A stretch of 64,000 nt of DNA from an uncultured Thermoleophilia bacterium (GCA_963709845.1 CAVPXV010000005.1:439032-503031); one strand, 5' to 3'. Positions 27,658 through 61,074 are shown, counted from the first letter of the stretch. Notes: generated by a model from the sequence alone, not told the origin. Translations and numbers: made by a program.

Positions 27658-27773
27658 GGGCCTCACCTGTGCTTTCGCTCGAGAGGACTGGACGTCGTGC
27701 GGCAATCGTACCAGAGCGCGGCGAGCGCGGGCCACGTTGCCGCGGGGGGCTCGCCGGAGAGGCGGCGCGGGGC

Positions 27774-28334
27774 TCAGGCGGCAGCGCCGCCCCCTCCCCG
27801 CGCCCGGCGCACGAAGGCGACGGCACGGTGCAGGTACAGAAGACCGCTGGCCACGTAGAGCGTCGCGCCCACGGCGAAGAACGACCAGCCCACGACGCGG
27901 AAGTCGATGATGAACCACTGGATGGCGCAGATCAGGATGAAGTTGCCGGCCTTGCCCCAGCGGCTGATCTGTGGCCCCTGCCGCGTGTAGCGCCGCGTCG
28001 GCGCCACCAGCACCAGGATGACGCCGTCGCGGACCAGGAGCGGAAGCACGGCCCACCAGGGCAGTGTGCCGAAGTACCAGAGCATCGCCACAAGTGTGAA
28101 GAAGAAGAGCCGGTCGACGATGGGGTCCAGCCAGCGCCCGAACTCGCTCTGCAGGTGGTAGCGCCGCGCGATGATCCCATCGGCGACGTCGCTGAGCGCC
28201 GCGAAGAGGACGATCCAGGCCGTCGTCCAGCTGGCGCCGGGCGCGTAGAGGCCGTAGGTCCAGACGACGAAAGGCAGGGCCACGAGGCGCGCGACGGTGA
28301 GGACGTTGGGCACGTGGCGCAGGAGGCGTTCCAT
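27774..28334 (-). CDS. CDP-alcohol phosphatidyltransferase family protein
   Basis: Signature [10 protein letters not shown]...G...DPIVDR with 5-6 TM segments. Confidence 0.8.
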
Positions 28335-28446
28335 TGGCGGGCAGTCTAGCAGGCCGCTGTGGAAGCCGCCGCGCGGCCCCTCACCGGCCCCTCTCCCCCA
28401 CGCCGACGCCTCCGCGTGCCTATGCTAGAATACGGCGCTGTACGGT

Positions 28447-28524
28447 CGGCGTGTGGCGCAGCCTGGTTAGCGCACTAGTCTGGGGGACTAGGGGTCGCCG
28501 GTTCAAATCCGGCCACGCCGACCA
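28447..28524 (+). tRNA. tRNA-Pro (anticodon GGG)
   Basis: Manually folded cloverleaf: 7-bp acceptor CGGCGTG/CACGCCG, D-arm GCGC/GCGC, anticodon stem CTAGT/ACTAG with loop CTGGGGG, T-arm GCCGG-TTCAAAT-CCGGC, encoded CCA. Confidence 0.85.
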
Positions 28525-43933: not shown

Positions 43934-44725
43934 TCAGGGGCAGCCGGCCCGCGTGCTGGCGCTCCGGGCCTGATGCAGGCGCCGGCTCACCAGTGGTCGT
44001 ACTGGTAGCGGTGCAGCTTGCTGAGGAGCTCGTGGGGACGGTCGCCGAGCGGCTTCCCGAGGGACTCCAGCGTCTTCAACAGGCCACGCACGTGGCCGCG
44101 GAACGCAGTCGTGTCGTTCGTGTCCATAGATGCCCTTTCGTTGCTGGCCCCTGATGGTTCCCGCAGGCGGCGCCGCGAAACCCCGACCGCGGCGGCAAGC
44201 TCGGTTCGCACGCACGCGCCAGGACCGGCACCGTACGCGCGACGACCGGCCCCTCGACCGGTCGTGGTGTTGTTCCCGAGTGAGCGCGAGACTACAGGTC
44301 AGAAGCCCACGGCGTCCGACTCCGAGCGTCCGGCCGCCACCGTTCCCGCCGTTGCCGGGGCGGGGACGAGACAGCGACTCGACGAAGTCGTCCGGGACCG
44401 GCAGCTGGCGCAGGAGGATGCCGTAGAGCTTGTCGGCGAGCTCGGGGGCGCAGTTGAGCACCTCCGTCACCTTGCGCAGGCGGAACTCGAGGAAGAAGTC
44501 CGGTTCCACGAGGAGCGCCGCGGCGATCACCGCGAGCACGTTGTCGGCCGGCACCGGCCGGGTCCCCTTGGTGAGGTGGTTGAGGTACCCGGCCGACAGC
44601 TTGGTCTTGTAGGCGAGCTGCCGGTAGCTCAGATGGCGCTCCTCCATCAGCCCCTTGAGGGCCTCCGGAAAGCGCTCCTGCGAGAAGCGGTTCTTGGCGA
44701 TCGGCGTGGTGTACATCGTGTTCAT
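43934..44725 (-). CDS. XRE-family HTH transcriptional regulator; 3' half of the ORF probably non-coding
   Basis: N-terminal Cro/C1 HTH (FPEALKGLMEERHLSYRQLAYKTKLSAGYLNHLTKGTRPV). Beyond about aa 120 the ORF is Arg/Gly-rich and overlaps a better small ORF. Confidence 0.6.
   Translation of the reverse strand: MNTMYTTPIAKNRFSQERFPEALKGLMEERHLSYRQLAYKTKLSAGYLNHLTKGTRPVPADNVLAVIAAALLVEPDFFLEFRLRKVTEVLNCAPELADKLYGILLRQLPVPDDFVESLSRPRPGNGGNGGGRTLGVGRRGLLTCSLALTREQHHDRSRGRSSRVRCRSWRVRANRACRRGRGFAAPPAGTIRGQQRKGIYGHERHDCVPRPRAWPVEDAGVPREAARRPSPRAPQQAAPLPVRPLVSRRLHQARSASTRAGCP
43987..44127 (-). CDS. Small protein (46 aa), possibly DUF397-like partner of the upstream XRE regulator
   Basis: MDTNDTTAFRGHVRGLLKTLESLGKPLGDRPHELLSKLHRYQYDHW with RBS AAAGGG. 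Sits directly downstream of an XRE-family HTH gene. Confidence 0.35.
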   Translation of the reverse strand: MDTNDTTAFRGHVRGLLKTLESLGKPLGDRPHELLSKLHRYQYDHW

Positions 44726-44859
44726 GACACTAAGAGATATCGCCCGCGGCGCCCGGATACTTGAGTGGCAACGCCGCGTGCGTTGTCACAGCGGACAACG
44801 CGAGGAGCTCTCCCCCAGCCTCGAAGGCGGCGTTGCCGCGCCGCGAGGCGGCCCTGGGG

Positions 44860-46565
44860 TCAGCGGTCGAGCAGCTCCCGCAGAGCGGCGGCGAGCTCGG
44901 CCACGGGCACGTCGCGGCGCTCGCCGCCGGCGCGGTCCTTGAGCTCGACGACGCCCTCGGGCGCGCGTTTGCCGACGACCACCTGCGCCGGGCAGCCGAG
45001 CAGGTCGGCGTCCTTGAACTTGATGCCCGGGGCTCAGGTCGCGGTCGTCGTAGAGCACCTCGAAGCCGGCGGCGGCGAGCTCGGCGTAGAGCCGCTCGGC
45101 GAGCGCCGCCTGCGTCTCGTCGGAGGCGCGCACGAGCACGAGGTGCACGTGGAACGGCGCGATCGCCGCCGGCCAGACGATGCCGTTGCCGTCGTGGTGC
45201 TGCTCGATGGCGGCGGCGGCGATGCGCGCCAGGCCGATGCCGTAGCTGCCCATGACGATGTCCTGCTCCTTGCCGTCCTCGTCGAGGTAGGTGGCGCCCA
45301 TGGGGTGCGAGTACTTGGTGCCGAGCTGGAAGATGTTGCCGACCTCGATCACCCGGGCGCCCTCGAGCTGCGTGGGCGCAGCGCGCGCAGGGGTCGCCCG
45401 GGCGCGCCTGGCGCAGGTCGCGGAACTCGGCCTGCGGGATCTGCGCCGGCGAGACGCCGCCGCGGTGGTAGTCGGGCTTGTTGGCGCCGGCGACGTAGGA
45501 GCCCCGGCGCAGCGCCTCGTCGGCGATCACCGGCAGCGAGGTCGGCACGGGGCCGACGAAGCCCGGCTCGATGCCCTGGGCAGCGAGCACCTCGTCGGCC
45601 GTCGCCATGCGCAACTCGGCGCCGAGCGCCTTGCGCAGCTTGAGCTCGCTGAGCTCGTGGTCGCCGCGCAGCAGGACCATGACGGCGCGGCCCTCGCCGC
45701 CCTCCGCGTCCTCGGCGATCACCACGAGCGCCTTCACGAAGCCGCGCGCCGGCACGCCGAGGAAGGCGCTCACCTCGGCGATGGTGCGCGCCCCGGGCGT
45801 GTGCAGCTCGCCCTCGCCGGGCACCTCGGCCGGCGCCTCCGCATCGGCGCCGGCGACGGCCGTCTCCACGTTGGCCGCGTAGCCGCACTCGCGGCAGTAG
45901 ACGATCTCGTCCTCGCCGGCCTCGGCGAAGGCCATGTACTCGTGCGAGACGTCGCCGCCCATCATCCCCGAGTCGCCCTCGACCATCATCACCGCGAGGC
46001 CGCAGCGCGCGTAGATGCGCTCGTAGGCGCCGATGTGCTTGCGGTAGCTCTCCTGGAGGGCCTCGAAGCTCACGTCGAGGCTGTAGGAGTCCTTCATGAT
46101 GAACTCGCGCGTGCGCAGCACGCCGCTCTTGGGCCGCGCCTCGTCGCGCTCCTTGGTCTGGATGTGGTACCAGAGCTGCGGCAGCTGCTTGTAGCTGTGG
46201 ACCTCGCGCGCCGCCAGCCAGGTGATGACCTCTTCGTGGGTCATCGCCAGCGCCATGTCGGCGCCCTTGCGGTCCTTGAGGCGGAAGAGCTCCTCGTCGA
46301 TGGCGTCCCAGCGGCCCGACTGCTGCCAGATCTCGGCCGGGTTGATGACCGGCATGAGCATCTCCTGGCAGCCGATGGCGTCCATCTCCTCGCGGATGAT
46401 GGCGGCGATCTTCTGCATCACGCGCCAGCCGGCCGGCAGGTACACGTAGACGCCGGCGGCGAGCTGGCGCACGAGGCCGGCGCGCACCATCAGCTTGTGG
46501 CTGATGGCCTCGGCGCCGGCCGGATCCTCTTTGACGGTGGGCAGGAGCAGCTGACTGGCGCGCAT
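44860..46565 (-). pseudogene. proS: Proline--tRNA ligase (bacterial type), two frame changes near the 3' end
   Basis: N-terminal 400 aa intact in ORF 44730..46565 (MRASQLLLPTVKEDP..., class II motifs). The anticodon-binding domain continues in ORF 44786..45352 ([18 protein letters not shown]...). The last about 55 aa ([10 protein letters not shown]...LLDR) are in a third frame. Confidence 0.8.
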
Positions 46566-46609
46566 GTGACCTCGCGATGGTGTGGTGTGGCGGGCGAGGC
46601 CCTATGCTA

Positions 46610-48856
<2,247 letters not shown>

Positions 48857-48913
48857 GCCGGCGATTGTATCAGCCGGCGCCGCCCGCCCGATGTCGGGGA
48901 CTGGCGACCGTTG

Positions 48914-50067
48914 TCAGGCTCGCACGAGCCTTCGCGCGTACTTCGTCGCCAGACGCAACGGCCTGTAGGGCCAGTACAGTGCCGTGAAGGCCGGCTTCAG
49001 ATCGAGCGCCACCCAATCCCCGGGGCCGGGCGTAAAGAGCCTTCGCAGCACGGATTCTGCCGCCGCCAGCGCCGAATCCTCGCTGAGCGCCATCCTGGCC
49101 AGGCTGCGCAGCTCGGCGCCGACCCCGGAAGAGCGGCCTTCGTGAAGCTGGAGAAGAGCCGCGCGAGCCAGCGACTCCGCGAGTGGGTCGCCGGAGAGCT
49201 CGGCCTGGACCTCCAGCGGCAGTGGCAGGTCGAGGGCCACACTCACGACGCGCGCGCCGATCAGACCACGGCGCAAGCAGCGCCAGCGGCGGGCGTCATC
49301 GAGGAAGATCCGCCACTGCGTCGGTGTCATCATGCGCATGACTCTCCCCGCGACCACCACTAGTTCAAGCCGGTCCCACTCGTGCCTTGCGCCGTGCACG
49401 CAGAGCATGAGCAGCGTGTCGTCCAGGCTCGGAGCGGCCACCGACCTGTCAAGTAGGTCAATCGAGTCGAGCGTTCGATGAGATGGTCCGCCGGGATAGA
49501 TGTGGCCTTCAGTAGCGTGCCGACGCGCTCGTGCACCTCCAGCAGGCAGTCGAGGGCTGGGCTGTCGAAGGCCAGCTCCCCGCCCTGCGCGAGATGCGAC
49601 GCGTCGTGCTCCGGTGGCCAGCCGCCGCGACGCGTGAACCCTTCCCGCAGCAGCGCTTCCGTCGCGAGCGGCACCTGCTCGTGAGGGACCAGCACGTCGA
49701 GGTCGGCCGGGGCTCTCAAGCCCGGGTCACCGAACGCTTGCACACTCAGCACGGGGCCCTTGTACGGCAGCGCCGTGATGCCGGCGGCAGACAGTAGGTC
49801 GAGCACGCGGCACAGTCGTGAGGACATGAAGAGGCCGCGCTGCACGGAAGATCGGTAGAGGCTCTGCAGGGTGTCCTTGGCGTCGGCCGGGCACAGGGAC
49901 GGATCCAGCGAGAGCACCTGCTTGTAGAGGAGCGCGCTGAGCCGGTGGTCGATGCTCTGCTGGATTACGGTGGGCCAGTCGACGGTGGCCCGAGCCGCCC
50001 GCTCGAGGTCGCTCGTCGAGGCCGCGCCGACCGCGACGCGCGCGCACGCCACCAGGAGCGGCGACAA
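48914..50067 (-). pseudogene. Nucleotidyltransferase-family protein (PF14907-like, RiPP-cluster associated), one frame change near 49400
   Basis: N-terminal part ...ITALPYKGPVLSVQAFGDPGLRAPADLDVLV; C-terminal part LLMLCVHGARHEWDRLEL in the adjacent frame. Confidence 0.65.
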
Positions 50068-50077
50068 GCCGGGCGCG

Positions 50078-51223
50078 TCAGCCAGTGTCCTCTCTCCTAT
50101 CGCCCGAGGATGGGCCGGGCGCCGGCGCCGCCAGTCGCCCGGCCGGGAACAGGCCGTCCTGCTCGGCGAGCTCGCAGAACCAGTAGGCGCCGAGCACGTC
50201 GCCGGAGCGGTAGTAGTTCTGGGCGATGCAGGAGCCGAGGCAGGCGGCGCGCATCAGGCAACGGCCACACACACCGCCGAGGCCGTCGGGCAGACCCTCG
50301 CGGATGCGCACGAGCACCGGGTGCTCGCGCCAAACGTGCGCCAGCTCGCCCTCGCCGGCGCGACCGAATACCAGCTCCGGCACGTGCTCGCCGATGCCGC
50401 ACAGCGCGTAGCTGCCATCGGCCAGCAGGCCCAGGATCCCACGGATGCCGCAGATGCCGCAGCCGTCGCCGCCGAGGTACTCCCCGAGGGGGCGGAAGGC
50501 CGCGGGGACGTCGACGTAGATCGGCAGGGAGAACCGCTGCCGGAGGTCGTCGCGCACCCGCGAGTGAAGCTCCAGGTACTCGCCGATCGACAGCCCCTCC
50601 CCGCTGGCGTAGATGTCCTCGCCGCGCAGCGTCGGCTGGATGAAGTTGATCTTCACGGAGCCGACGCCCAGCTCCTCGGCGAGCTCCAGCACCGCCTCGA
50701 GCTCGCCGACGTTCGTGCGCATCGCGCTCGTGATGAACTGCGTGTCGAGCCCTGCGGCGACCAGGTTGCGCGTGCCCTCGAGCGTGCGCGCATGCGCCCC
50801 GCGCACGCCGCGGATGGCGTCGTGCACGTCCGCGGAAGCGCCGTCGAGGCTCACGGAGACGAAGTCCACGCCGGCCTCCAGGAGGTGCTCCGCCAAGGCG
50901 CTGGTGACCAGGAGGCCGTTGGTCTCCATGTGCCCGCCGAGCCCGTGATGTGCCTGGATGTCCAGCAGCTCGCCGAAGGCCGGGTGCAAGGTCGGCTCTC
51001 CGCCCGTCCACTTGAGCGTCGTCAGGCCGAGCGGCTTGGCCTCCTCGATGGCGGCGTCCAGGGCGGTAGGCGTGAGGAAGCGCGCGGCGCGGCCGCCGCC
51101 CGCCTTCTTGGCAGGTACGATCCAGCAGTGCCTGCAGGCGCAGTTGCAGCCGTCGGTCACGTACACGTAGAGCTGGCGCAGGGGCGGCGTGCTCACGCTC
51201 GCCGGCGACTCCGTCACTTCCAC
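50078..51223 (-). CDS. Radical SAM/SPASM-domain peptide-modifying enzyme
   Basis: Cx3Cx2C cluster DGCNCACRHCW and a Cys-rich C-terminal SPASM region (CGICGI...CGIGE...CGRCLMRAACLGSC). Confidence 0.85.
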   Translation of the reverse strand: MEVTESPASVSTPPLRQLYVYVTDGCNCACRHCWIVPAKKAGGGRAARFLTPTALDAAIEEAKPLGLTTLKWTGGEPTLHPAFGELLDIQAHHGLGGHMETNGLLVTSALAEHLLEAGVDFVSVSLDGASADVHDAIRGVRGAHARTLEGTRNLVAAGLDTQFITSAMRTNVGELEAVLELAEELGVGSVKINFIQPTLRGEDIYASGEGLSIGEYLELHSRVRDDLRQRFSLPIYVDVPAAFRPLGEYLGGDGCGICGIRGILGLLADGSYALCGIGEHVPELVFGRAGEGELAHVWREHPVLVRIREGLPDGLGGVCGRCLMRAACLGSCIAQNYYRSGDVLGAYWFCELAEQDGLFPAGRLAAPAPGPSSGDRREDTG

Positions 51224-52318
51224 CCCGCGATCCCCTCGGCCTCGAGCTCCGCCTCAAAGCGGCGCAGGCAGGCGTCGGGGCTCGGCCGATTGGCGTCGCC
51301 GAGCAGCGAAAGGGCTCCACCGGCGCAGTTGCCGGTGCACGACTCGATGTAGTCGCAGCCCGCGCACTCCTCGAACTCGGCCAGCGCTTTCTGCCGGCGC
51401 GCGCGCAGCTCCTGCAGCGCCGGCGCGCTCTGCCACACGTCCACAAGCCGGTCTTCGCCGATGTGGCCGAGTACGATCTGCGGCAGCGCCACGCACGGCA
51501 CGTAGGCGCCGTCGGCGCGCACCGCAAGTTGCTTCAGCATGCAGCCGCAGCCCACGAGTTTGCCATGCCCTGGGATGGGCTCTCCCGCCTCCCGCGCCAG
51601 CTCCAGGGCGCAGAACATGTGCCAGTCAGCGAGAGGGCCGGCCATGGCAGTCACGCGCCCCGGATAGCGTTCCTCGAGCTCGGCGAGCGTGTGCATGGCC
51701 TGCACCCGCTGCGCCGGCGTGAGGAACATCCCGAGCTCGTACTTCTCGTGGGTGCCCAGCGAGGTGATGGCGTTGGTGCTGAACGTCGGCAGGCCGAGGT
51801 CGTCGAGCAGGAGCGCCGCCAGCGCCGGCAGGTCGTCGAGGTTGGCGCGCGTTCACAGTCACGCGCACGGTCGTCGGCAGCCCGGCCGCCTGCAGCGTGC
51901 GGATCGCGCGCAGTGCAGGCTCGAAGGTGCCGGGGCCGCGCAGGCGCTCGTGCGCCGCTGCGGTGGAGCCGTCCAGGGAGACCTGGACGGACGAGCACCG
52001 CCGCGTCGCCGCCAGCGCCTGCGCGAGCTCAGCCGTGACGAACCACCCGTTGGTGAGCACGCGAAAGCGGATGTTGCGGCTGCCGAGCTCCTCGGCCAGC
52101 TCGACGAAGTCGGGCCGCATCAGCGGCTCTCCGCCCGCCAGCGTGGCTTCGAGGACCTTTGCCTCGGCGAGTTCGTCGAAGAAGGCGAGCCACGCCGACG
52201 TGGGCAGGTCCTCGTAGCGCACGCCCTCGTTCTTCAGGTAGTAGCAGTAGGCGCAGCGCGCGTTGCAGCGGCTGGTGAGCTCCAGGTCGACCTCGAGAGG
52301 CGTGCGCGGCAGCGAGGC
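51214..52318 (-). pseudogene. Second radical SAM/SPASM-domain enzyme, one frame change near 51680
   Basis: Radical SAM half LELTSRCNARCAYCYY...LAGGEPL in ORF 51626..52504. SPASM half (CGCMLKQLAVRADGAYVPCV...CAGCDYIESCTGNCAG) in ORF 51214..51729. Confidence 0.75.
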
Positions 52319-52323
52319 CAGCG

Positions 52324-52623
52324 TCACGAAGCCACCCTCAGCGCACCCGCGTCGGCCAGGGCGCCCAGCAGCTCCACCACCTCGCGGCTCCCCTCCTGGT
52401 CGAAGCCGTCGAAGCCGCGGCGGAGTTCCGCCAGCAGGTCTCCGACCGTGCGTTCGCCGACCACAAGCCTCCACACGGCAACCGTCGAGCGATTCGCGAC
52501 CCACACCTCGCCGGTGTCCGCGTCGAACAGGATCGCCTCGCCGCCATCTTCCTCCCTGAGCACCCAGCTCGGGTTGATGGTGACTCGCGCGCCCGCGTCC
52601 AAATCGGGTCGATCAGCTCGCAT
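52324..52623 (-). CDS. PqqD-family peptide chaperone (RiPP recognition element)
   Basis: 99 aa with WVLREEDGGEAILFDADTGEVWVANRSTVAVWRLVVGERTVGDLLAEL, the PqqD pattern. Confidence 0.7.
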   Translation of the reverse strand: MRADRPDLDAGARVTINPSWVLREEDGGEAILFDADTGEVWVANRSTVAVWRLVVGERTVGDLLAELRRGFDGFDQEGSREVVELLGALADAGALRVAS

Positions 52624-52676
52624 CGTGCCTCCACTCCCCGCGACTCCTCGACGTCTCGCGCCGGAGTCGCGCTACA

Positions 52677-53681
52677 ATGGCCCCGCTGACTTTCACCGCA
52701 ACGTCAGGCGGTGTCAACCGACCTCAGAGGCCATGTTGCCTTCTCATCCTGTCGACAAGAGGAACGCCTCGCGACCGCATCGGGCGCATCTCCTTCGGCC
52801 CACTGCAGTACGAGCTTGTCGCCGCCGACGACTGGGGCGATGCCACACTGGACGACGTACGTCGACACGTCGAGATGCAGACCTTCGAGGGCGCCTCGCT
52901 GCGGCGCGTGATCTACGCCGGTGTCGAGACTACACAAGCGGAACGGCGGATGGTGGATGGGGGCCGTTTGCCAGCCCCCCTCCAGGCTGCTCACGCCGGC
53001 GCCCTGCCGGCGGACGGGTGGCGGGTCACCGGTGACGACGCCGGCAGCATCCTTTGGCTGCACCCGGGTTCGCCCGTCACCTTCTTGACACCCAGCCCCC
53101 TGCCGCCGCCGCTGCGCGCGCGCATCCGCCTGCCCTGGCAGGCGATCGTGCAGGACGTCGTGGGCTACGGTGGCGCCGTCGTGCACGCAGCCCTCGTGAC
53201 GCACGCCGACAGGGCCTACCTGCTCACCGCTCCCCCTGGGGGCGGCAAGACGAGCACCGTCGCACGCCTGCCCAAGGGTTGGACGCTGCTGGGTGACGAC
53301 GGCTGCCTGCTGTGGGCTGGCAGCGGGCAGTTCTTCGCCAGCCCGCTGCCCACGTGGAGCCACGTGCTGGGCGTAGGCGCAGCGCCGGTCGGGGTCGTGA
53401 CATGGCGCGTCGCTGACGCAGTACCAGTGTACGGCCTTGTCCTGCTGACGAAGGCAGCGCGAGACTCGCTCGCAGAGCTGGACCCCCTCGGAGCCACGGT
53501 GGCGTTCTACCGCGCCTTCTCGGAGCACCCCGCTGTCGTTGGCGCGAGGACAGAGCTGCGTGCTCACCTACTCGAGACGGTCGGCGCTCTCGCGGATACT
53601 GTACCTTGCCACGAGGCACGATTGGCCCTCGCTGCGGCACCGCTCGACGATCTCTTCTGCGCACTGGCTGATGCTGGCTGA
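52677..53681 (+). CDS. HPr-kinase-like (HprK C-terminal-like) P-loop protein of RiPP clusters
   Basis: GGAVVHAALVTHADRAYLLTAPPGGGKTSTVARLPKGWTLLGDDGCLL matches the HprK-related kinase core. Confidence 0.65.
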   Translation: MAPLTFTATSGGVNRPQRPCCLLILSTRGTPRDRIGRISFGPLQYELVAADDWGDATLDDVRRHVEMQTFEGASLRRVIYAGVETTQAERRMVDGGRLPAPLQAAHAGALPADGWRVTGDDAGSILWLHPGSPVTFLTPSPLPPPLRARIRLPWQAIVQDVVGYGGAVVHAALVTHADRAYLLTAPPGGGKTSTVARLPKGWTLLGDDGCLLWAGSGQFFASPLPTWSHVLGVGAAPVGVVTWRVADAVPVYGLVLLTKAARDSLAELDPLGATVAFYRAFSEHPAVVGARTELRAHLLETVGALADTVPCHEARLALAAAPLDDLFCALADAG

Positions 53682-54306
53682 GCGCGCCGACAGGGACGTA
53701 CGACACTTCGTCTACCGCGGGCGAAGCATGTGGCCGCTGTTCCGGGACGGTGACGTCCTCATGGTGCGGCCGGTGCGTGGGCGATCGATACGCCTGGGGG
53801 ACTGCGTCGTGTTTTGCTCGCGACCCGGCCTGCCGCCGATAGTCCACCGTGTCGTTGGCCGCACGGGCGGTTACAGAACGAGAGGCGACGCGCACGCCGA
53901 GTACGACGATCAAGTACTGGGCTCGCTAGACGTGATCGGCGTCGTCTCTGCGCGAGTCCGGGCCGGAGCCGTCAGTAGGGTGTCAAGAGGTTGGAGGGGC
54001 CTCGGCGCGGCGAGCATCGCTCGCCAGGCCGCGAAGCTCGATCCTGCGCTCGACTCGCGAGGCGGCGCACTGGCTCGCGTGCTGAGGCGCACGCTGACGC
54101 GGGCGGCGGACAACCTGGGCCGCCGTGTGACCCACGTGCCTCAGCCTCAGGGTCAAGGAGATCGCGTGGTGCGGCTGGAACTGCTGGGGAAGGTCGTCGG
54201 CGTGCACACCATGCGGCACAGGCACATCGACGTCGACGTGTTCTGGCCGTGGACGCTGCTCTTCACAGCTGAAGCCCTCGAGGAGGGTATCTGCGGGCGA
54301 AGCTAG
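53671..54306 (+). CDS. S26/LexA-like signal-peptidase family protein (candidate leader peptidase)
   Basis: GRSMWPLFRDGDVLMV...GDCVVF...PIVHRVV...TRGDAHAEYDDQV...VIGVV, the SPase I / S24-S26 motif order. ATG overlaps the upstream stop. Confidence 0.65.
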   Translation: MLAERADRDVRHFVYRGRSMWPLFRDGDVLMVRPVRGRSIRLGDCVVFCSRPGLPPIVHRVVGRTGGYRTRGDAHAEYDDQVLGSLDVIGVVSARVRAGAVSRVSRGWRGLGAASIARQAAKLDPALDSRGGALARVLRRTLTRAADNLGRRVTHVPQPQGQGDRVVRLELLGKVVGVHTMRHRHIDVDVFWPWTLLFTAEALEEGICGRS

Positions 54307-54333
54307 GCTTCAGCGCCAGACCGCCGCTCAGGT

Positions 54334-54522
54334 CTACCTGCTGGAGCCGACCTGGCAGTTGCCCTGAAAGTGAGTCCCGCCGGTCTGACAGTGGTTGCCG
54401 GAGGCCGCGGTGCTGCCCGTCTCACAGACGCCGGTCGTCACTGTAGAACCGTTGCTGCACGCCCCAAAGACTTCGGGTAGGGACTCAAGTTTGACTAACT
54501 TTGGTGTCTCCCAACGCTCCAC
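54334..54522 (-). CDS. Candidate RiPP precursor peptide (62 aa, 4 Cys in 11-12-residue repeats)
   Basis: GTG start with RBS AAAGGGG. MERWETPKLVKLESLPEVFGA leader-like part, then CSNGSTVTTGV/CETGSTAASGNH/CQTGGTHFQGN/CQVGSSR. Codon usage is A/T-ending (tta, aaa, ttt, aca, tct, tgt), unlike the rest of the window. Confidence 0.6.
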   Translation of the reverse strand: MERWETPKLVKLESLPEVFGACSNGSTVTTGVCETGSTAASGNHCQTGGTHFQGNCQVGSSR

Positions 54523-54895
54523 AGTTCGGCCCCTTTGTGTGCGTTTCCCGCTCGGTTGCGCGCCATCCTACTTCGTTCGGGGTTCCGGACGCAAGAGTCA
54601 GGATGGTGTCAAGCATGCCTTTCGCGACCAGGTCCTCGACGAACGCGAGGAGGTCACCGAGCAAGTCGTCTGGCGCCGCGTCGAATCGCGTGGCCGCTCC
54701 GCCGACCACGTCGCGCAGCGGTCGAGAGCCGTCGATGAGCTCCCAGATCGCCTGCCCTGTCGCGTTGAGCGTGAACAGATCGTCGAGCGGGTCGCCGGCA
54801 TCCGCGTGCAGGGGCGCGAGGACGACGCGGCCGCCGACCAGGCGGGCCGCGACGTCCGGCGAGTGGATCAGGACGGTGTCGGGTGAGAGCGTCAC
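54485..54895 (-). CDS. Second PqqD-family protein
   Basis: GTG start. VLAPLHADAGDPLDDLFTLNATGQAIWELIDGSRPLRDVVGGAATRF pattern. The 3' end overlaps the precursor ORF start in another frame. Confidence 0.6.
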   Translation of the reverse strand: MTLSPDTVLIHSPDVAARLVGGRVVLAPLHADAGDPLDDLFTLNATGQAIWELIDGSRPLRDVVGGAATRFDAAPDDLLGDLLAFVEDLVAKGMLDTILTLASGTPNEVGWRATERETHTKGPNCGALGDTKVSQT

Positions 54896-55074
54896 GGTCG
54901 CGCCATTATGCCACGCCGCGCCCGCCCCTCCTCCCCCACCGGGCGCATTCTCTGTAGTATCTGGGCGGGCCGCGCCCGCCGCAGGGGGAGCGCGGCCCGG
55001 GCCCGAGGAGGCCGGCGCTGAGCGAGGAGCAACGCAAGCCCCAGATCCGCGACGCCCTGCACCTCGTCGACGCG

Positions 55075-56862
55075 GTGCGGCTGGTGTGGCGCGCCGCCCC
55101 GGGCTGGACCGTCCTCACCGTCTCCCTCGCCTTCGTCCAGGGCATCCTGCCGCTGTTCGCCGTCTACCTGATGAAGCTCATCGTCGACGCGGTGACGCAG
55201 GGCATCACGCAGGCCGACCACGCCGCCGCCTTCCGCACCGCCGCCTTCTACATCGCCCTGGCGGCGCTCGTCGGCCTCGCCACGGCGCTCCTGCGCTCGC
55301 TCGGCGCCGTCGCCAGCGAGGCCATGGGCCAGGTGGTCACCGACCACGTCAGCGACCTCATCCACGAGAAGTCCATCGCCGTCGACCTCGAGTACTACGA
55401 GAACGCCGAGTACTACGACACCCTGCAGCGCGCCCAGAACGAGGCGCCCTCGCGCCCCACGCAGATCGTCAACGACCTGCTGAGCACCGGCCAGAGCCTC
55501 ATCTCCGTGATCGCCATGGTCGGCCTGCTGCTCACGCTGCAGTGGTGGGTCGGCGCGATCGTCGTCGCTCACCGCCATCCCCGGCGCCCTCGTGCGCGTG
55601 CGCTACTCGCACCGCCTCTACGACTGGCAGCGCGGGCGCACCTCCACCGAGCGCCGCGCCTGGTACGCGCACTGGCTGCTCACCAGCGGGCCGCACGCCA
55701 AGGAGGTGCGCCTCTTCGGCCTCGGCGAGCTCTTCCGCGGCATGTACAGCGACCTGCGCCGCGTCCTGCGCACCGAGCGCATCGGCATCGCCAAGCGGCG
55801 CGCCGCCGCCGACTTCGCCGCCGGCGCCCTGGCCGTGCTCGCCATCTTCGGCACCTTCGCCTACATCGTCTGGGAGACGATCATCGGCGCCATCAGCCTG
55901 GGCTCCATGGTGATGTACTACCAGGCCTTCCAGACCGGCCTCACCTCGCTGCAGGCCGTGCTCGGCGGCATGGCCGGGCTCTACGAGGACAACCTCTTCC
56001 TCACCTACTACCACGAGTTCATGGCGCTGGAGCCGCGGGTGCTGCCGCCGGCGCAGCCGGCGCCGGTCCCGCGGCCGATGAGCGAGCGGCGTCCACTTCG
56101 AGGCCGTCGACTTCGCCTACCCGGACACGGAGCGCCAGGCGCTCGCCGACGTCACCCTCGACATCCGCCCCGGCGAGGTCGCCGCCCTGGTCGGCCCCAA
56201 CGGCTCCGGCAAGACCACGCTCGTCAAGCTCCTGTGCCGGCTCTACGACCCCACGGCCGGCGCCATCACCCTCGACGGCACCCCGACCGAGCGCCTTCGA
56301 CGTCAGCGAGCTGCGCCGCCAGATGAGCGTCATCTTCCAGGACTTCTCGCAGTACCAGTTCACGGCGCGCGAGAACATCCGCATCGGCAACGTGGAGCTG
56401 GCGGCGGGCGACGCCGGCGGCGGAGGCGGCGGTGGAGGCCGCCGCCCGCGAGGCCGGCGCCGACGAGGTCATCCGCAGCCTGCGCCACGGCTACGAGACG
56501 ATGCTCGGGCAAGCTGGTTCGAGGAGGGCGAGGAGCTGAGCGTGGGCGAGTGGCAGAAGGTGGCGCTCGCCCGCGCCTTCGTGCGCGACGCGCAGATCCT
56601 CGTCCTCGACGAGCCCACGAGCGCGCTCGACCCGGAGGCCGAGTGGCAGATCTTCCAGCACATCCGCGAGCTCGCGCGCGGCCGCGCCGTGGTGCTCATC
56701 AGCCACCGCTTCAGCACCGTGCGCACGGCCGACCGCATCCACATCCTCGACGGCGGCCGCATCGTCGAGAGCGGCAGCCACGACGAGCTCGTCGCCCTCG
56801 GCGGCCGCTACGCGCGCATGTACGAGGTGCAGGCGCGCGCATACACCACCGGCGACGGATAG
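55075..56862 (+). pseudogene. ABC exporter (fused TMD-NBD, MsbA/MdlB-like), at least 5 frame changes
   Basis: TMD in ORFs 55075.. and 55592..56326. NBD motifs split across frames (Walker A GPNGSGKTTLVKLL, Q-loop, signature LSVGEWQKVALARAF, Walker B ILVLDEPTSALD, H-loop ISHR). Confidence 0.8.
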
Positions 56863-56910
56863 TGCGGGTCGCGCCGCGCGGGGCGGCGTCGTTCGTATAG
56901 ACTCAGCACC

Positions 56911-58146
56911 GTGATCGACGCCGGCCCAACCACACGACCAGCATCGCGCCTCTGGAGGCGCTGCACGGCCGGCGCGGCGCCTCGCCGCGGTCGCCTCCGT
57001 CACGCCACCCGCCTGGCCGCCGTCGCGGCTCTCGTGCTCCTCGGGTTCGCCGGCTCGGCCGCCGCCCTGGCGGCGGCCCCGCCGCCCGCCTCAGCCCTCT
57101 CCAAGGGCCTCATCGAGCCCCGCTACGAGCAGTCCACGACGGACCTGGTTCGCGCCAGGCTCATCACGCAGATGGGGTCGCAACTCCACACCGGCTGGGT
57201 GCTCATCAACGTCGATTGGGCCAAGCCTGGAGCCCACGCGCGGCCTCTACGACCCGGTCGAGGTCGCGCGCCTCGACACACTCGTCAACGGCCTGCACAA
57301 GGCCGGCATCAAGGTCATGCTCTCTCCCTGCTACGTGCCGGCGTGGGCCTCGCAGACCTCGTGGTGGACGAAGCCGCCGCCGAGCTACGGCGTCGGGCTA
57401 CCAGCCCTTCTACCCCATCCGCTCGGACGCCCTGCCGGACCTCACCCGTCTGGGCAAGTTCCTTGCCACCCACTTCAGCGGCCGCGTGCAGGCGCTGCAG
57501 TGCTGGAACGAGCCCAACCTGTGGCCGTTCCTCTACCCGCAACGCACCAGCGACGACGCCTACTTCGGGGCGCGCACCTACCTGGGCATGCTCAAAGCGT
57601 TCCACGCCGGCGTCACGCAGGCGCACACCAAGGTCCAGGTCGTCGCCGGCGCCACGGCGCCGATCGGCCTCAACGACTCCATGCGCACCAGCCCTCAGCG
57701 CTTCGCCGGCTTCCTCGCCCGCAACCACGCGGGCAGCTACTTCGACGCCTACTCGCACCACCCGTACACGCCCGGCGGCACCATCTTCCAGCGCCCCGAC
57801 CAACCGCCCAACGACCCTTCGGTGACGGTCACGCTCTACAACCTGAGCACGCTGCTGCGCCTCTTCCCCACCAAGCCCTTCTACCTCACCGAGTACGGCT
57901 ACAACACGCACCCGTCGATGGCGTTCGGCTACTTCACGGTGAGCGCCGCCAAGCAGGCGGTGTACCTGCGGCTGGCGTACGCGCGGGCGCGCAAGTACCC
58001 GCAGGTCAAGGTGCTGTTCTGGTACCTGCTCTACGATTCGCGCCCGACGTCCGGGCCGGCCGAGCAGGGGCGTCTACACGGGCCTACGAGAGGGCAACGG
58101 GACGCGCAAGCCGGCCTGGTACTCGTTCCGCGACCTGCCCAGGTAA
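56911..58146 (+). pseudogene. Secreted GH5-like glycoside hydrolase, 3 frame changes
   Basis: Signal peptide, then WNEPNL (catalytic acid region) and TEYGYN (nucleophile region) split over ORFs 56911.., 57317.. and 57216.. Confidence 0.6.
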
Positions 58147-58208
58147 CGAAAGGGCGCCGCGCGGCGCAGACTCTGCGTCGGCGCGCGGCGCCCCGATCCA
58201 GAACCGTG

Positions 58209-58960
58209 CTACTTCTTGACGGTGAGCGTCGAGCTGTTGCCGGTGGTCGTGGCGGCGAGGTACGGAGCCGCCTTCGTTGCGTTGGTGTAGGCCTGGAAGC
58301 GGTACTTCCCAGCGGAGCCGAGCTGGAGCGTGAGCGAGTACTTGCTGTAGGCGCCGCTATTCGAGTTGGTCGCCGTGTAGGTCTTGTACGTGCTCCATTT
58401 GCCGTTCTTGTAGCGGAAAGCGCTGATGTGCACGGGATTGACGCCCGGCCCGGCCTGCGGCTTGAGCGTGCCGGTGATGGTGAAGTTCTTGTTGATCTTG
58501 ACGGAGGCCGGCACCTTGGGGACGGTCAGCGACGGCTTGACGTGGATGAGCAGCGAGTTGCTGAGGGACGGGATCGTACGGAGGGTTGCCGAGGAATACG
58601 AAGCGGTAGTAGGTGAGCTGCTGGGGGTACACCACGGCGGCGTATTGGCCGGTGGCGTACTGCCCCGGGTCGGTGGTGAGCGTGGCGAGGAGCGTCCACG
58701 GAGAGGGTGACCGGTGGGCGACCACTCCAGACGCACGAACTGGCCGCCGAGGGCCGTGAGCGTGACGTATCCATGAGGGTGCCGGTGACGATCTTGTAGC
58801 CGCCCCAGGTGATGGTCGAGTTGGTCGGGACGGCCGTGAGGCTCGTCGTGTCGGCGGCGGCGATGGCCGGGACGACGAGCATCACCAGCATCGCCGCGAC
58901 GACGACGAGCAACACCGGCACCTTCATCCGGGCGGGCTTGATCGCGGACCTTGCGTTCAT
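58209..58960 (-). pseudogene. Secreted beta-sandwich (Ig-like) protein, 2 frame changes
   Basis: Signal peptide MKVPVLLVVVAAMLVMLVVPAIAAA in ORF 58526..58960. Beta-rich Thr/Ser domain in ORF 58209..58736. Confidence 0.45.
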
Positions 58961-59015
58961 GACATGGCCTCCAATGTCGTCACGGCGTGGCGTGCCTCAA
59001 TCTACGGACGCAAGT

Positions 59016-60698
59016 CTATGCGAGTGGCGCGGCGGAACAAAGGGGGACGACGCTTCTGGCCGCCGCCGTGGGCGGCGCCGAGGAGGCCGTCAGGCGATCG
59101 GCGCTGCCGGCTTGCTCGTCTTGGCCTCGTACTTCTTGCCGCTCCGGCTGTACGAGTAGCCGGACGAATAGGAGGAGTAGTAGCGCCCCTGCCGGTGCTC
59201 GCCGTCGGTGCGCACGATGATGCCGAGCGCGGCGCACGGGAGCTTGCCGAGCTGCTCGGCCGCGCGCTCCAGCATCGGCCTCGTCGCGACGTGCATGTCG
59301 ACCAGGAACACGAGTCCGTCCACCGTCGAGGCCAGCGCCGCCGTGTCGCCCACGGCAAGCAGCGCCGGCGAATCCACGAGCACGATGTCGGCCGTTGAGA
59401 CAAGCGTCTCGATCATGCCGGCGAACCGCCGGGACGCGACGATCTCGCCCGGGTTCGGCGGCAGCGGCCCGCTGGTGAGCACGTAGAGGGAAGTGACGCC
59501 CTCGCTGCCGGCCGCCCATCCCTCGAAGTCCACACCGTTGGCCCCGTTGCCGCTCGAGGTCACCACGACCTTCTGCAGCGCCGAGTCCAGCGGGCCCTTC
59601 CCGGTCGTGACGGTGCTCACGCCGTGTTCGTTGTCGAGCCCGAAGTACTGATGCTGGCGCGGGCGCCGCAGGTCCCCGTCCACGACGATGACCTTCTTGC
59701 CGGCGAGCGCCATGGCCACCGCCAGGTTGGCGACGGTGACGCTCTTGCCCTCGCCCTGGATGCCGCTCGTCACGAGCAGCGAGTGCACGTGGGCATCGAC
59801 GCTCATGAAGTCGAGATTCGTGCGCACGAGGCGGAACGCCTCGGCGGCGTGCCCGTCGGGGTCGCTCAGAGTCGCGACGGTGTGCTCGCCCAAGAGCCGC
59901 TTGGAGATGCGCGGGATGCGACCGAGGACGGGCTGACGAAGGACCTGGGCCACTTCCTCGGAGCGCCGTACGCGCGTGTCGAACTGCTCGAGGAGGAAGG
60001 CCAGGCCGATCGCCAGCGAGGAGCCCGACGCCGAAGCCGAGCACGGCGCTGCGCAGCGGCTTTGGCGAGACCGGCGCTGCGGGCGGCGTCGCCGGCACCA
60101 GCACGCGGAAGTTGCCCGTGGCGGTCGCCTTGAGGATCCTGAGGTCCTGCAGGCGCTGTGCGAGGACGAGGTAGTCGGTGCTCTGCTGGGCCGCTCCCTG
60201 ATAGGACTTGAGCTGCGTCTTGGTCGCGTGCGATGGCCCGCTGGATCTGCGTGGCGGTCTGCTCGCGTGCGCCAGCGCGACGAACGCCACCGCGTAGGCG
60301 TTGGCGGCCGCGGCCGCCAGCCTGGGGCTCGAGCTCGTGGCGGTGATGCGCACCACGTTGCTCGTCGTCGTCGTGGCCGCCGCCCCGGTGTCGGTGACGG
60401 GCTGCGACGAGACCGTGAAGCCGGTGACCGCGACGCCCTTGTCGCGCAGCACTCGAGCGGCTCGCCGCGTCATGTCCGGGCTCGCCAGCACGCTCCCTAC
60501 GCTGGCCAGCTCGAGGTTGCGCGCGGTGGGGTCGGTGTACGTCTGCCCGGTCAGCGGATTGGAGAGGTCCAGCTGCTGCTCGTAGATGAGGTCGGCGCTG
60601 GCCTCATACTGTTTGGTCTGGCGCGCCGAGAAGAAGTAGGCCGAGCCCGTGGCCACAGCGACCACCAGCAGGATGATCCACTTGCGGCGCCAGAGCAC
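59016..60698 (-). pseudogene. Fused Wzz-type chain-length determinant + BY-kinase (polysaccharide tyrosine autokinase), one frame change near 60020
   Basis: N-terminal TM/Wzz part LWRRKWIILLVVAVATG. Kinase part with Walker A GIQGEGKS, VVDGDLRRP and a Tyr cluster YYSSYSSGYSYS in ORF 59090..59953. Confidence 0.8.
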
Positions 60699-61074
60699 GG
60701 CCAGGTAGTCGCCAAGCGTGATGGCTCGGCCCTCGCCAAGTTCGCTCGCCGCGCTGGGCGGAGCCGCCTGGCTGGTGGGCGGGGGAATCGTTTGTGGGGG
60801 TCACTTGATCCCTTCGATCAATCGCGGCGCCACGACCGGCCGCTGGGCACACATGCAGACAGTAGCAGGACGAGACTCCCAGTCCAACCGCGGCGAAGCG
60901 AGGGCTGCCGTGCCGGCAGGACGCATGGCGGGCCACCATCGAGGTGTGACCCTGCTTGTGAACGGAAATTGCGAGCGTCGTCAGCCACTTCACAGTAAGA
61001 TGTGCCCCTGAGGCCGCTAACGGGGGTCCGCGGGCAATGACCGTCACGAGAGGTCGCGCTCAATCGAGACATGC

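What the first reader, a model, noticed from the sequence alone, without database searches (positions are those of the whole stretch)
48914..56862. Radical-SAM/SPASM RiPP-type cluster with nucleotidyltransferase, HPr-kinase-like, S26 peptidase, two PqqD-like proteins, ABC exporter and a 4-Cys repeat peptide
Nine adjacent genes have a gene content typical of ribosomal-peptide maturation. They are a PF14907-like nucleotidyltransferase, two rSAM enzymes with the Cx3Cx2C cluster and Cys-rich SPASM C-termini, two PqqD-like recognition elements, an HprK-related P-loop protein, an S26 peptidase, an exporter and a short Cys/Thr/Gly-rich ORF. Two rSAM-SPASM + PqqD + HprK-like is what I recall of the SynChlorMet-type cassette. 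HprK + nucleotidyltransferase pairs occur with lasso peptides. I cannot place this combination with an S26 protease and a C-x11-C repeat core in a named class. That leaves it as a candidate for an undescribed thioether-type (sacti/ranthi-like) product.
Basis: partly seen in the sequence, partly recalled or inferred. Interest (0 to 1): 0.85.

Follow-up and report, generated by a model that had tools for sequence, protein, structure and literature searches.

The report
SynChlorMet-type radical-SAM peptide gene cluster
The nine genes are a real peptide-maturation cluster, but it is a divergent, rearranged member of the already catalogued "SynChlorMet" (SCM) cassette, whose peptide product I could not find described anywhere.

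Summary
Window 48914-56862 carries nine adjacent genes:
- a PF14907 nucleotidyltransferase
- two radical-SAM/SPASM enzymes
- two PqqD-like proteins
- an HprK/PEPCK-fold P-loop protein
- a soluble S26 peptidase
- a 62-aa four-Cys peptide
- an ABC exporter

The two rSAM enzymes pass the NCBIfam equivalog cut-offs for ScmF (425.5 bits, cut-off 400) and ScmE (404.1 bits, after repair of one frameshift). The other three components have ScmD, ScmC and ScmA as their best family hits, all below cut-off.

The supposedly unplaceable extras are normal parts of this cassette. In 37 related loci, the S26 peptidase, ScmC and the ABC exporter travel with ScmE/ScmF wherever enough flank is present. ScmC and the S26 domain are naturally fused in both orders in at least ten proteins. 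PF14907 recurs in three other loci.

The peptide belongs to a conserved precursor family. It has a [W/Y]xxPx[VIL] leader, an invariant Gly two residues before the first Cys, and CxxG repeats.

The frame breaks in ScmE, the nucleotidyltransferase and the ABC gene look like assembly errors.

The chemistry is inferred, not shown: thioether cross-links, phosphorylation, and leader removal by the S26 enzyme. No paper on the cassette turned up.

Verdict: a new member of a known but uncharacterised kind, of moderate interest.

The parts
48914..50067 (-). PF14907 (NTP_transf_5) nucleotidyltransferase, last gene of the scmD-E-F operon. One missing base near 49440-49470 splits it into two ORFs.
   Evidence: Pfam 94.8 + 26.8 bits in pieces. 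Inserting one base restores a 384-aa protein scoring 135 bits over profile positions 3-244 of 249. The hKG...DLDVLV motif is read from the translation. Homologues lie next to SCM genes in L008, L009 and L029.
50078..51223 (-). ScmF, radical SAM/SPASM enzyme (381 aa, intact).
   Evidence: TIGR04251 425.5 bits, cut-off 400, full length. Radical_SAM 88 bits. CNCACRHC and CX11GX4C...CX2CX5CX3C...C read in the translation. Relatives are 45-62% identical in 34 loci and 84% in L016.
51214..52327 (-). ScmE, radical SAM/SPASM enzyme. One extra base near 51845 splits it. The GTG start at 52327 overlaps the scmD stop.
   Evidence: Pieces score 164.5 and 180.8 bits on TIGR04250. Deleting one base gives 370 aa scoring 404.1 bits, cut-off 400. 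tblastn with the L001 and L006 ScmE proteins shows the frame switch between 51786 and 51848.
52324..52623 (-). ScmD, PqqD-family peptide-recognition protein (99 aa).
   Evidence: PF05402 34.1 bits. TIGR04248 is the best hit at 49.3 bits, below the cut-off of 100. 38% identical to L001 ScmD, E 5e-22.
52677..53681 (+). ScmC, HprK/PEPCK-fold P-loop kinase-like protein (334 aa).
53671..54306 (+). Soluble S26B-type (SEC11-like) Ser/His/Asp peptidase, the presumed leader peptidase. Its start overlaps the scmC stop by 11 nt.
   Evidence: TIGR02228 48 bits, cut-off 51.85. A profile of 14 cassette homologues vs PDB hits SEC11A at E 6.5e-12, aligning SMxP, VHRV and T[RK]GD..DD. Invariant S19, H59, D73 and D79. 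Maximum 19-residue hydropathy is 1.22, so no membrane anchor. Fused to ScmC in at least ten proteins.
54334..54522 (-). ScmA-family precursor peptide, 62 aa: MERWETPKLVKLESLPEVFG / ACSNGSTVTTGVCETGSTAASGNHCQTGGTHFQGNCQVGSSR.
   Evidence: TIGR04252 E 9e-4, 19.4 bits, cut-off 35. Aligns with 11 small ORFs from 9 other SCM loci, most of them directly downstream of scmF; invariant P7, G20, C22, C33, G36, C45, C56. 49-61% identical to two precursors in L017. An AGGGG Shine-Dalgarno sequence ends 7 nt before the GTG.
54485..54895 (-). Second discrete PqqD-family protein, immediately upstream of the precursor gene.
   Evidence: PF05402 50.8 bits. 57-67% identical to the gene in the same position in L016 and L017. 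Not orthologous by BLAST to the second PqqD-like gene of the deltaproteobacterial loci.
55075..56862 (+). ABC exporter (fused permease + ATPase, no C39 peptidase domain), divergent from pqqD2. At least 5 frame breaks.
   Evidence: tblastn with the L001 and L008 exporters gives four collinear HSPs in three frames at 38-66% identity. The stitched protein has ABC_tran 109 bits and ABC_membrane. A further out-and-back shift lies between the Q-loop and signature regions. Orthologous exporters sit beside ScmC in most loci.

Best explanation
This is an SCM (SynChlorMet)-family RiPP gene cluster, in a high-GC-lineage arrangement shared with two metagenomic relatives.

Proposed pathway:
1. The 62-aa ScmA-like precursor is bound through its leader ([W/Y]xxPx[VIL], at a fixed 18 residues before the first Cys) by the discrete PqqD-type recognition proteins.
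2. The translationally coupled rSAM/SPASM enzymes ScmE and ScmF, possibly as a complex, modify the core at or around the four conserved CxxG units. The most likely modification is intramolecular thioether cross-links.
3. ScmC, an HprK/PEPCK-fold protein that keeps the His, P-loop Lys and Asp-Asp residues of HprK/P, uses ATP. It either phosphorylates the peptide or gates processing, and it works as a unit with the cytosolic SEC11-like S26 peptidase.
4. That peptidase removes the leader, probably after the invariant Gly (window: ...PEVFG|AC).
5. The PF14907 nucleotidyltransferase is an optional tailoring enzyme. By analogy with pseudomycoidin, it would decorate a phosphate.
6. The ABC transporter exports the product.

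Shown: family membership of the enzymes, conservation of the gene set, the precursor family and its invariant residues, the ScmC fold, the S26 catalytic motifs, and ScmC-S26 fusions.

Inferred: every chemical step, the cleavage site, and the order of events.
For: - ScmF 425.5 bits and repaired ScmE 404.1 bits, both above the 400 cut-off.
- ScmD, ScmC and ScmA are the best family hits for the other three components.
- The gene set is co-conserved in 37 loci from Desulfuromonadales and other deltaproteobacterial MAGs, Armatimonadetes, Margulisiibacteriota, Methanocella, Fermentibacteria and metagenomes. S26 + ScmC are present in 16 loci with enough flank.
- Precursor family: seven invariant positions in 12 sequences. 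The leader-to-first-Cys distance is 18 in 11 of 14. Gly is at +3 in 50 of 60 Cys units.
- L016 and L017 share the window's gene order, and L016 ScmF is 84% identical.
- The S26 profile hits SEC11A at E 6.5e-12 with Ser, His and Asp aligned, and there is no hydrophobic anchor.
- ScmC-S26 fusions occur in both orders.
- Overlapping stop/start codons link scmD-E-F and scmC-S26 (read).
- Residues before the invariant Gly fit the signal-peptidase -3/-1 rule, with Pro at -5 in the window and at -4 or -5 in several relatives (alignment).
- Precedents: an HprK homologue plus a nucleotidyltransferase on lasso peptides (PMC8498205); two rSAM enzymes acting as a complex in thuricin CD (PMC12093266).
Against: - No product has been observed for any SCM cassette in the literature I could search. 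All the chemistry is therefore analogy.
- ScmE and ScmF do not reach the cut-offs of any sacti- or ranthipeptide maturase model. Their next-best hits are AhbD/NirJ2, GeoRSP and MftC.
- Apart from Cys and Gly, no position in the repeat is invariant, so no acceptor residue can be named.
- Precursor C-termini are not conserved as Ser, unlike the substrates of the lasso kinases.
- ScmD, ScmC and ScmA score below the NCBIfam cut-offs.
- The sequence as given has frame breaks in three of the nine genes.
- The S26 structure model was too poor to use (pLDDT 52.7).
Confidence: 0.6

Rival explanations
1. It is the same SCM cluster, but the rSAM chemistry is not thioether formation. ScmE and ScmF might install C-C or C-O cross-links, epimerise residues, or convert Cys into another group. 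The peptide might act as a metal-binding or redox peptide rather than a sacti/ranthi-type product.
For: The nearest non-SCM models for ScmE and ScmF are GeoRSP, AhbD/NirJ2 and MftC, not thioether synthases. Only Cys and the Gly at +3 are conserved in each unit, and no acceptor side chain is conserved. Four evenly spaced Cys could also serve as metal ligands.
Against: Cys-rich cores paired with SPASM enzymes are the hallmark of sacti- and ranthipeptides. Weak hits to StsB, PapB, AlbA and SkfB are present. A dedicated exporter and a leader peptidase point to a secreted product.
Confidence: 0.25
2. The cluster is a decaying, non-functional remnant, and the frame breaks in ScmE, the nucleotidyltransferase and the ABC exporter are real mutations.
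For: There are at least 7 frame breaks in 8 kb of cluster. The breaks are concentrated in window 44.7-60.7 kb, while conserved genes at 3-36 kb are intact.
Against: - The same stretch also breaks the essential prolyl-tRNA synthetase, gmd and fcl.
- Every break is a single-base shift. Repair restores conserved protein with no in-frame stops (ScmE 404 bits, nucleotidyltransferase 135 bits, ABC 38-66% identical in all segments).
- The related contig L016, from the same kind of ENA assembly, is broken in different genes: ScmF, ScmC and the precursor.
Confidence: 0.07
3. ScmC is not a peptide kinase. It would be an ATP-dependent recognition or activation subunit of the S26 peptidase, giving an ATP-gated leader peptidase. 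The nucleotidyltransferase would then act on something other than a phosphopeptide.
For: ScmC and S26 domains are fused in both orders, and their genes overlap in the window. ScmC is present in nearly all cassettes, but PF14907 is in only 4 of about 20 informative loci. No conserved Ser/Thr position exists in the core or at the C-terminus.
Against: The HprK/P catalytic His and Asp-Asp, not only the P-loop, are invariant in ScmC. The documented role of HprK homologues in RiPP clusters is precursor phosphorylation (PMC8498205).
Confidence: 0.2

Closest known systems
SynChlorMet (SCM) cassette: NCBIfam TIGR04248 ScmD, TIGR04249 ScmC, TIGR04250 ScmE, TIGR04251 ScmF, TIGR04252 ScmA; Pfam PF27840 ScmC
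   Same: It has the same five components. ScmE and ScmF are above the equivalog cut-offs. The precursor has four Cys in a Gly/Ser/Thr-rich core. The S26 peptidase and ABC exporter accompany the cassette in most related loci.
   Different: - The gene order is rearranged: precursor + PqqD2 and ScmC + S26 are inserted between the exporter and scmD-E-F. Only L016 and L017 share this order.
- ScmC, ScmD and ScmA fall below the NCBIfam cut-offs. Canonical TIGR04249-positive ScmC proteins are only E about 1e-13 from this one.
- The second PqqD protein is not orthologous to the deltaproteobacterial one.
- An added PF14907 gene is present.
- The host has 71% GC.
Sactipeptide and ranthipeptide systems (AlbA, StsB, PapB; thuricin CD TrnC/TrnD)
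   Same: An rSAM/SPASM enzyme with a full 7-Cys auxiliary-cluster motif acts on a Cys-rich core guided by a PqqD-type recognition element. Two rSAM enzymes work on one pathway, as with TrnC/TrnD (PMC12093266).
   Different: The maturase models score far below their cut-offs: PapB 76 vs 340, StsB about 102 vs 625, AlbA about 60 vs 850. The recognition elements are separate proteins rather than N-terminal fusions. Those systems have no kinase-like protein or S26 peptidase. No cross-link has been demonstrated here.
Phosphorylated and phosphoglycosylated lasso peptides (paeninodin kinase; pseudomycoidin kinase + nucleotidyltransferase)
   Same: An HprK-homologous kinase, a PF14907-type nucleotidyltransferase, a PqqD-type recognition protein and an ABC exporter sit in one RiPP cluster. 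The leader motif resembles the lasso YxxPxL motif, with a weak NF033521 hit for the L004 precursor (PMC8498205).
   Different: None of the nine genes is a lasso cyclase or a B2 transglutaminase-type protease. The precursor does not end in Ser. ScmC matches HprK_rel_A only weakly, 26.9 bits vs 200.
S26B signal peptidases (SEC11, archaeal SPase I) and the NiSOD maturation protease
   Same: The Ser (SMxP), His (VHRV) and T[RK]GD..DD motifs align. The profile E-value to SEC11A is 6.5e-12. There is a weak hit to the soluble NiSOD leader protease model TIGR02754.
   Different: It has no membrane anchor. It has a roughly 120-residue C-terminal extension conserved only among cassette members. It is coupled or fused to ScmC. 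Its substrate would be a cytoplasmic RiPP leader, not a Sec signal peptide.
Mycofactocin and PQQ pathways (MftC/MftB, PqqE/PqqD)
   Same: An rSAM/SPASM enzyme works with a discrete PqqD-family chaperone on a small ribosomal peptide. MftC and PqqE are among the next-best models for ScmE and ScmF.
   Different: Scores are far below cut-off: MftC 109-116 vs 265, PqqE 80-104 vs 381. The precursor has no Gly-Val-Tyr or Glu/Tyr motif. A dedicated exporter argues for a secreted product.

Membership tests
SCM (SynChlorMet) cassette | ScmF-type rSAM/SPASM enzyme (TIGR04251, cut-off 400 bits) | tested here: met
   425.5 bits, profile positions 2-353 of 353.
SCM (SynChlorMet) cassette | ScmE-type rSAM/SPASM enzyme (TIGR04250, cut-off 400 bits) | tested here: met
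   404.1 bits after removing one base near 51845. As given, the two pieces score 164.5 and 180.8 bits.
SCM (SynChlorMet) cassette | ScmD PqqD-family protein (TIGR04248, cut-off 100 bits) | tested here: not met
   49.3 bits. It is the best-scoring family but below cut-off. Orthology is supported by 38% identity to L001 ScmD and by position upstream of scmE.
SCM (SynChlorMet) cassette | ScmC (TIGR04249, cut-off 125 bits; Pfam PF27840) | tested here: inconclusive
   TIGR04249 59.9 bits, below cut-off. PF27840 'ScmC' is recorded for the identical protein P0001 and all close homologues. Canonical TIGR04249-positive proteins are found at E about 1e-13. It is a divergent subfamily.
SCM (SynChlorMet) cassette | ScmA precursor (TIGR04252, cut-off 35 bits): small peptide with four conserved Cys | tested here: not met
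   19.4 bits, E 9e-4. None of the eight precursors taken from other loci beside high-scoring ScmF homologues reaches the cut-off either (best 28.1 bits). The model is therefore narrow. Shared invariant residues are shown in the alignment.
SCM (SynChlorMet) cassette | Components encoded together in one cassette | tested here: met
   All lie within 8 kb with overlapping or closely spaced genes. The same set occurs in related loci.
Sactipeptides / ranthipeptides | Cys sulfur-to-carbon thioether cross-links installed by an rSAM/SPASM enzyme | not testable with these tools
   This needs MS/NMR of the product. Only the Cys-rich core and the SPASM enzymes are shown.
Sactipeptides / ranthipeptides | Maturase belongs to a characterised thioether-synthase family (AlbA, SkfB, StsB, PapB models) | tested here: not met
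   All are far below cut-off for ScmE and ScmF.
Lasso peptides with kinase/nucleotidyltransferase tailoring | Lasso cyclase (asparagine-synthetase-like) and B2 transglutaminase-type leader protease in the cluster | tested here: not met
   All nine genes are assigned to other families. Neither enzyme is among them.
Peptidase family S26 (signal peptidase I type) | Catalytic Ser in SMxP plus His (S26B) or Lys (S26A), and the GD..D box | tested here: met
   S19, H59, D73 and D79 are invariant in 14 homologues and align with the SEC11A catalytic region, profile E 6.5e-12. Single-sequence HMM scores fall just under cut-off.
Peptidase family S26 (signal peptidase I type) | N-terminal membrane anchor placing the active site outside the cytoplasm | tested here: not met
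   Only 18 mostly charged residues precede the catalytic Ser. Maximum 19-residue Kyte-Doolittle hydropathy is 1.22.
HprK/P-PEPCK kinase superfamily | P-loop kinase fold with conserved His, Walker-A Lys and Asp-Asp | tested here: met

The most novel reading that the evidence does not exclude
SCM peptides are an uncharacterised RiPP class. In it, radical-SAM cross-linking of CxxG units is combined with a processing machine not known from any other RiPP: an HprK/PEPCK-fold kinase physically coupled to, and often fused with, a cytosolic SEC11-like S26 peptidase. Leader removal would then be gated by ATP or phosphorylation. In variants that carry PF14907, including this one, the phosphate would be further glycosylated or nucleotidylated.
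Probability: 0.3. Interest if true: 0.7.

Novelty: new member of a known kind. Interest (0 to 1): 0.42.

Why it matters
The SCM cassette is a catalogued but unsolved system. It has curated models in NCBIfam and Pfam, yet I found no paper describing its product.

This window adds a divergent high-GC sub-lineage with its own gene order.

The comparative work also sharpens the picture of the whole family:
- The soluble S26 peptidase and ABC exporter are regular components.
- ScmC and the peptidase form a fused or coupled unit.
- ScmC keeps the HprK/P catalytic residues.
- The precursors share a fixed-register leader and CxxG repeats.

That gives a concrete, testable pathway for anyone who wants to express an SCM cluster. 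It does not reveal a new kind of system. The frame errors also make this copy a poor starting template without re-sequencing.

Tried and rejected
- Exact look-ups of the window's ScmF, precursor and ScmC (P0001) in the gene-position index found nothing. The cluster-member look-up gave no accession or organism. The source taxon therefore stays unknown. Context genes (RNase Y, DapL, LigD, 71% GC) only suggest a high-GC, non-proteobacterial soil-type lineage.
- The local Pfam copy has no model that hits ScmC.
- The AF2 model of the S26 peptidase from a 5-sequence alignment was too poor for a fold search (pLDDT 52.7). I used a profile-vs-PDB sequence search instead.
- A profile search for precursors in 5.8 billion proteins returned only six hits, because such small ORFs are rarely gene-called.
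- Six full-text searches aimed at the cassette or its gene combination (SynChlorMet, TIGR0425x/Scm names, SPASM + HPr kinase, the type organisms, HPr kinase + radical SAM, S26 + RiPP) found nothing relevant; a separate search supplied the lasso-peptide precedent. Term searches inside four candidate papers also found nothing on it.
- Promoter/terminator consensus scans and Rfam found nothing in or next to the cluster.
- Lasso-peptide membership was rejected: no cyclase or B2 protease.
- Mycofactocin/PQQ membership was rejected: scores are far below cut-off and the precursor motif is wrong.
- Real pseudogenisation was considered and judged unlikely (see rivals).

Full report
**Observation**

Domain searches confirm each assignment.
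- Nucleotidyltransferase: PF14907, in two pieces.
- Both rSAM genes: Radical_SAM, about 88 bits each.
- SPASM: found directly for the C-terminal half of the second rSAM gene.
- The two small proteins: PF05402 (PqqD).
- The peptidase: S24/S26 hits just under threshold.

Read from the translations, both rSAM proteins have CX3CX2C and the full CX11GX4C...CX2CX5CX3C...C SPASM pattern. The small ORF at 54334-54522 (minus strand) encodes a 62-aa peptide. Its four Cys are spaced 10, 11 and 10 residues apart. The stated coordinates, 48914-56862, are exact.

**What it is**

NCBIfam places the cluster in the SynChlorMet (SCM) cassette.

| Component | Model | Score (bits) | Cut-off |
|---|---|---|---|
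| ScmF | TIGR04251 | 425.5 | 400 |
| ScmE, two halves | TIGR04250 | 164.5 + 180.8 | 400 |
| ScmE, repaired | TIGR04250 | 404.1 | 400 |
| ScmD | TIGR04248 | 49.3 | 100 |
| ScmC | TIGR04249 | 59.9 | 125 |
| ScmA | TIGR04252 | 19.4 (E 9e-4) | 35 |

The ScmE repair removed one extra base near 51845. The ScmD, ScmC and ScmA models are each the best hit for their protein, although below cut-off. A protein identical to the window's ScmC exists in NCBI/ENA on a 682,755-bp contig and carries Pfam PF27840, named ScmC.

**Co-conservation**

Scans of one-genome-per-species contigs and of metagenome contigs with ScmF returned 34 loci at 45-62% identity. They come from deltaproteobacterial MAGs, Armatimonadetes, Margulisiibacteriota, Methanocella, Fermentibacteria and environmental contigs. 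Three more loci came from ScmC homologues.

A tblastn matrix and ORF maps give the usual order:
- PqqD-like, ScmD, ScmE, ScmF and the precursor on one strand;
- the S26 peptidase and ScmC on the other strand;
- then an ABC exporter.

Where at least 3 kb lies beyond scmF, S26 and ScmC are present in 16 loci, and the exporter in most of them. PF14907 is also present in L008, L009 and L029. So every gene in the window has precedent in other SCM loci.

The window's different order is shared by its closest relatives, L016 and L017. In L016, ScmF is 84%, ScmE 75% and PqqD2 67% identical, and both contigs are about 71% GC. That defines a high-GC sub-lineage.

**Precursor**

Small ORFs directly after scmF in the other loci, plus those in L017, align with the window peptide.
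- Invariant positions are P7, G20, C22, C33, G36, C45 and C56.
- The leader aromatic residue sits exactly 18 residues before the first Cys in 11 of 14 sequences.
- Of 60 Cys units, 50 have Gly at +3. Gly/Ser/Thr/Asn follow at +4 and +5, and Ala/Val/Pro at +6.
- TIGR04252 is a narrow model. None of the eight precursors I took from other loci beside high-scoring ScmF homologues reaches its cut-off.
- A Shine-Dalgarno-like AGGGG ends 7 nt before the GTG start.
- The peptide is apparently not gene-called in public data.

**ScmC**

A profile-vs-PDB search is not significant on its own (E 0.48). It does align the His, P-loop and Asp-Asp with the corresponding residues of L. casei HprK/P, 1jb1. ScmC is therefore a kinase-like protein with an apparently intact active site. 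Activity was not tested.

Against 1.84 billion representative proteins, the family has 31 members at E <= 1e-30 and 144 at E <= 1e-10. The more distant of these are the canonical TIGR04249-positive ScmC proteins, so the window's copy belongs to a divergent branch.

**S26 peptidase**

A profile of 14 cassette-linked homologues hits SEC11A and SEC11C at E about 7e-12, and bacterial signal peptidase I at 6.6e-7. The nucleophile (SMxP), the His (VHRV) and the T[RK]GD..DD box all align, and these residues are invariant.

Only 18 mostly charged residues precede the Ser, and no segment is hydrophobic enough for a membrane anchor. It is therefore a soluble enzyme, comparable in that respect to the NiSOD leader protease, whose model gives weak hits.

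At least ten proteins fuse ScmC and this peptidase domain. Nine are ordered ScmC-S26 and one is S26-ScmC. In the window the two genes overlap by 11 nt. This is strong evidence that they work together.

The residues before the invariant Gly are small or aliphatic at -3, with Pro at -5 in the window and at -4 or -5 in several relatives. That fits signal-peptidase specificity. I therefore predict cleavage after Gly20, which is an inference.

**Frame breaks**

ScmE has 1, the nucleotidyltransferase 1 and the ABC gene at least 5 single-base frame shifts. The neighbouring prolyl-tRNA synthetase, gmd and fcl are broken too.

Repairs restore conserved proteins without in-frame stops. L016 is broken in different genes. 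I read these as consensus errors.

Oddly, conserved genes at 3-36 kb are intact, while 44.7-60.7 kb is riddled with breaks. That may reflect a poorly polished, strain-variable stretch.

**Mechanism**

Shown:
- family membership of the enzymes;
- synteny of the gene set;
- precursor conservation;
- the ScmC fold and its conserved residues;
- ScmC-S26 fusions.

Inferred by analogy:
- leader binding by the PqqD proteins;
- Cys-centred cross-linking by ScmE and ScmF, possibly as a complex as in thuricin CD (PMC12093266);
- phosphorylation or ATP-gated processing by ScmC with the S26 peptidase;
- optional decoration by PF14907, as in pseudomycoidin (PMC8498205);
- export by the ABC transporter.

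**Comparison and novelty**

The cluster is a member of the SCM cassette. That cassette is a curated bioinformatic family for which six targeted full-text searches found no publication. This says only that the library holds nothing on it.

It is not a lasso, mycofactocin or PQQ system. It cannot yet be called a sacti- or ranthipeptide. I rate it a new member of a known kind, of moderate interest.

**Surroundings**

On one side lie proS, gmd and fcl. On the other lie an unassigned secreted-protein region, a Wzz/tyrosine-kinase pair and a sugar transferase. The cassette therefore sits inside a polysaccharide-biosynthesis neighbourhood. No RNA elements lie nearby.

Noticed in passing
window 44700-60700 versus 3000-36400: Single-base frame breaks are very unevenly spread. 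There are at least 15 in 44.7-60.7 kb (proS, gmd, fcl, nucleotidyltransferase, ScmE, the ABC gene, a GH-like ORF, Wzz/kinase). RimO, RecA, RNase Y, DapL, HflX, a 1081-aa ManC-PMM fusion and LigD at 3-36 kb read through intact. This is probably a poorly polished or strain-variable stretch of a long-read assembly.
   Followed up: partly
window 46699-48856 (minus strand); L016 9019-9650: GDP-mannose 4,6-dehydratase and a GDP-fucose-synthase-type epimerase lie directly downstream of the PF14907 gene on the same strand, with a 57-nt gap. The relative L016 also has gmd 3.6 kb from its SCM genes. This could be mere polysaccharide-locus neighbourhood or a sugar-donor supply for tailoring.
   Followed up: no
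P0030, P0101, P0115, P0127, P0128, P0140, P0144, P0158, P0055; L020 2379-3908: ScmC and the S26 peptidase domain occur as natural single-chain fusions in both domain orders. I found no mention of this in the papers searched.
   Followed up: yes
window 54334-54522: The precursor ORF appears not to be gene-called in public data. An exact look-up fails, and a family-profile search of 5.8 billion proteins does not return it.
   Followed up: partly
L004 4354-4578; L017 1797-2306; L010 8144-8383 and 11062-11502; L002 2848-3054 and 6229-6429: Several SCM loci carry two or three precursor genes. The L004 leader gives a weak hit to a lasso-leader model (NF033521, E 0.068), which suggests a shared YxxPxL-type recognition motif.
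   Followed up: partly
window 25138-28380 (minus strand): A single 1081-aa ORF combines a mannose-1-phosphate guanylyltransferase-like region (residues 243-578) with a phosphohexomutase region (624-1072). tRNA-Pro(GGG) sits just upstream at 28447-28524.
   Followed up: no
window 1-44000: The gene content (RNase Y, LL-diaminopimelate aminotransferase, LigD, FtsK, RecA) together with 71% GC suggests a non-proteobacterial high-GC lineage. The organism could not be identified with the available look-ups.
   Followed up: partly
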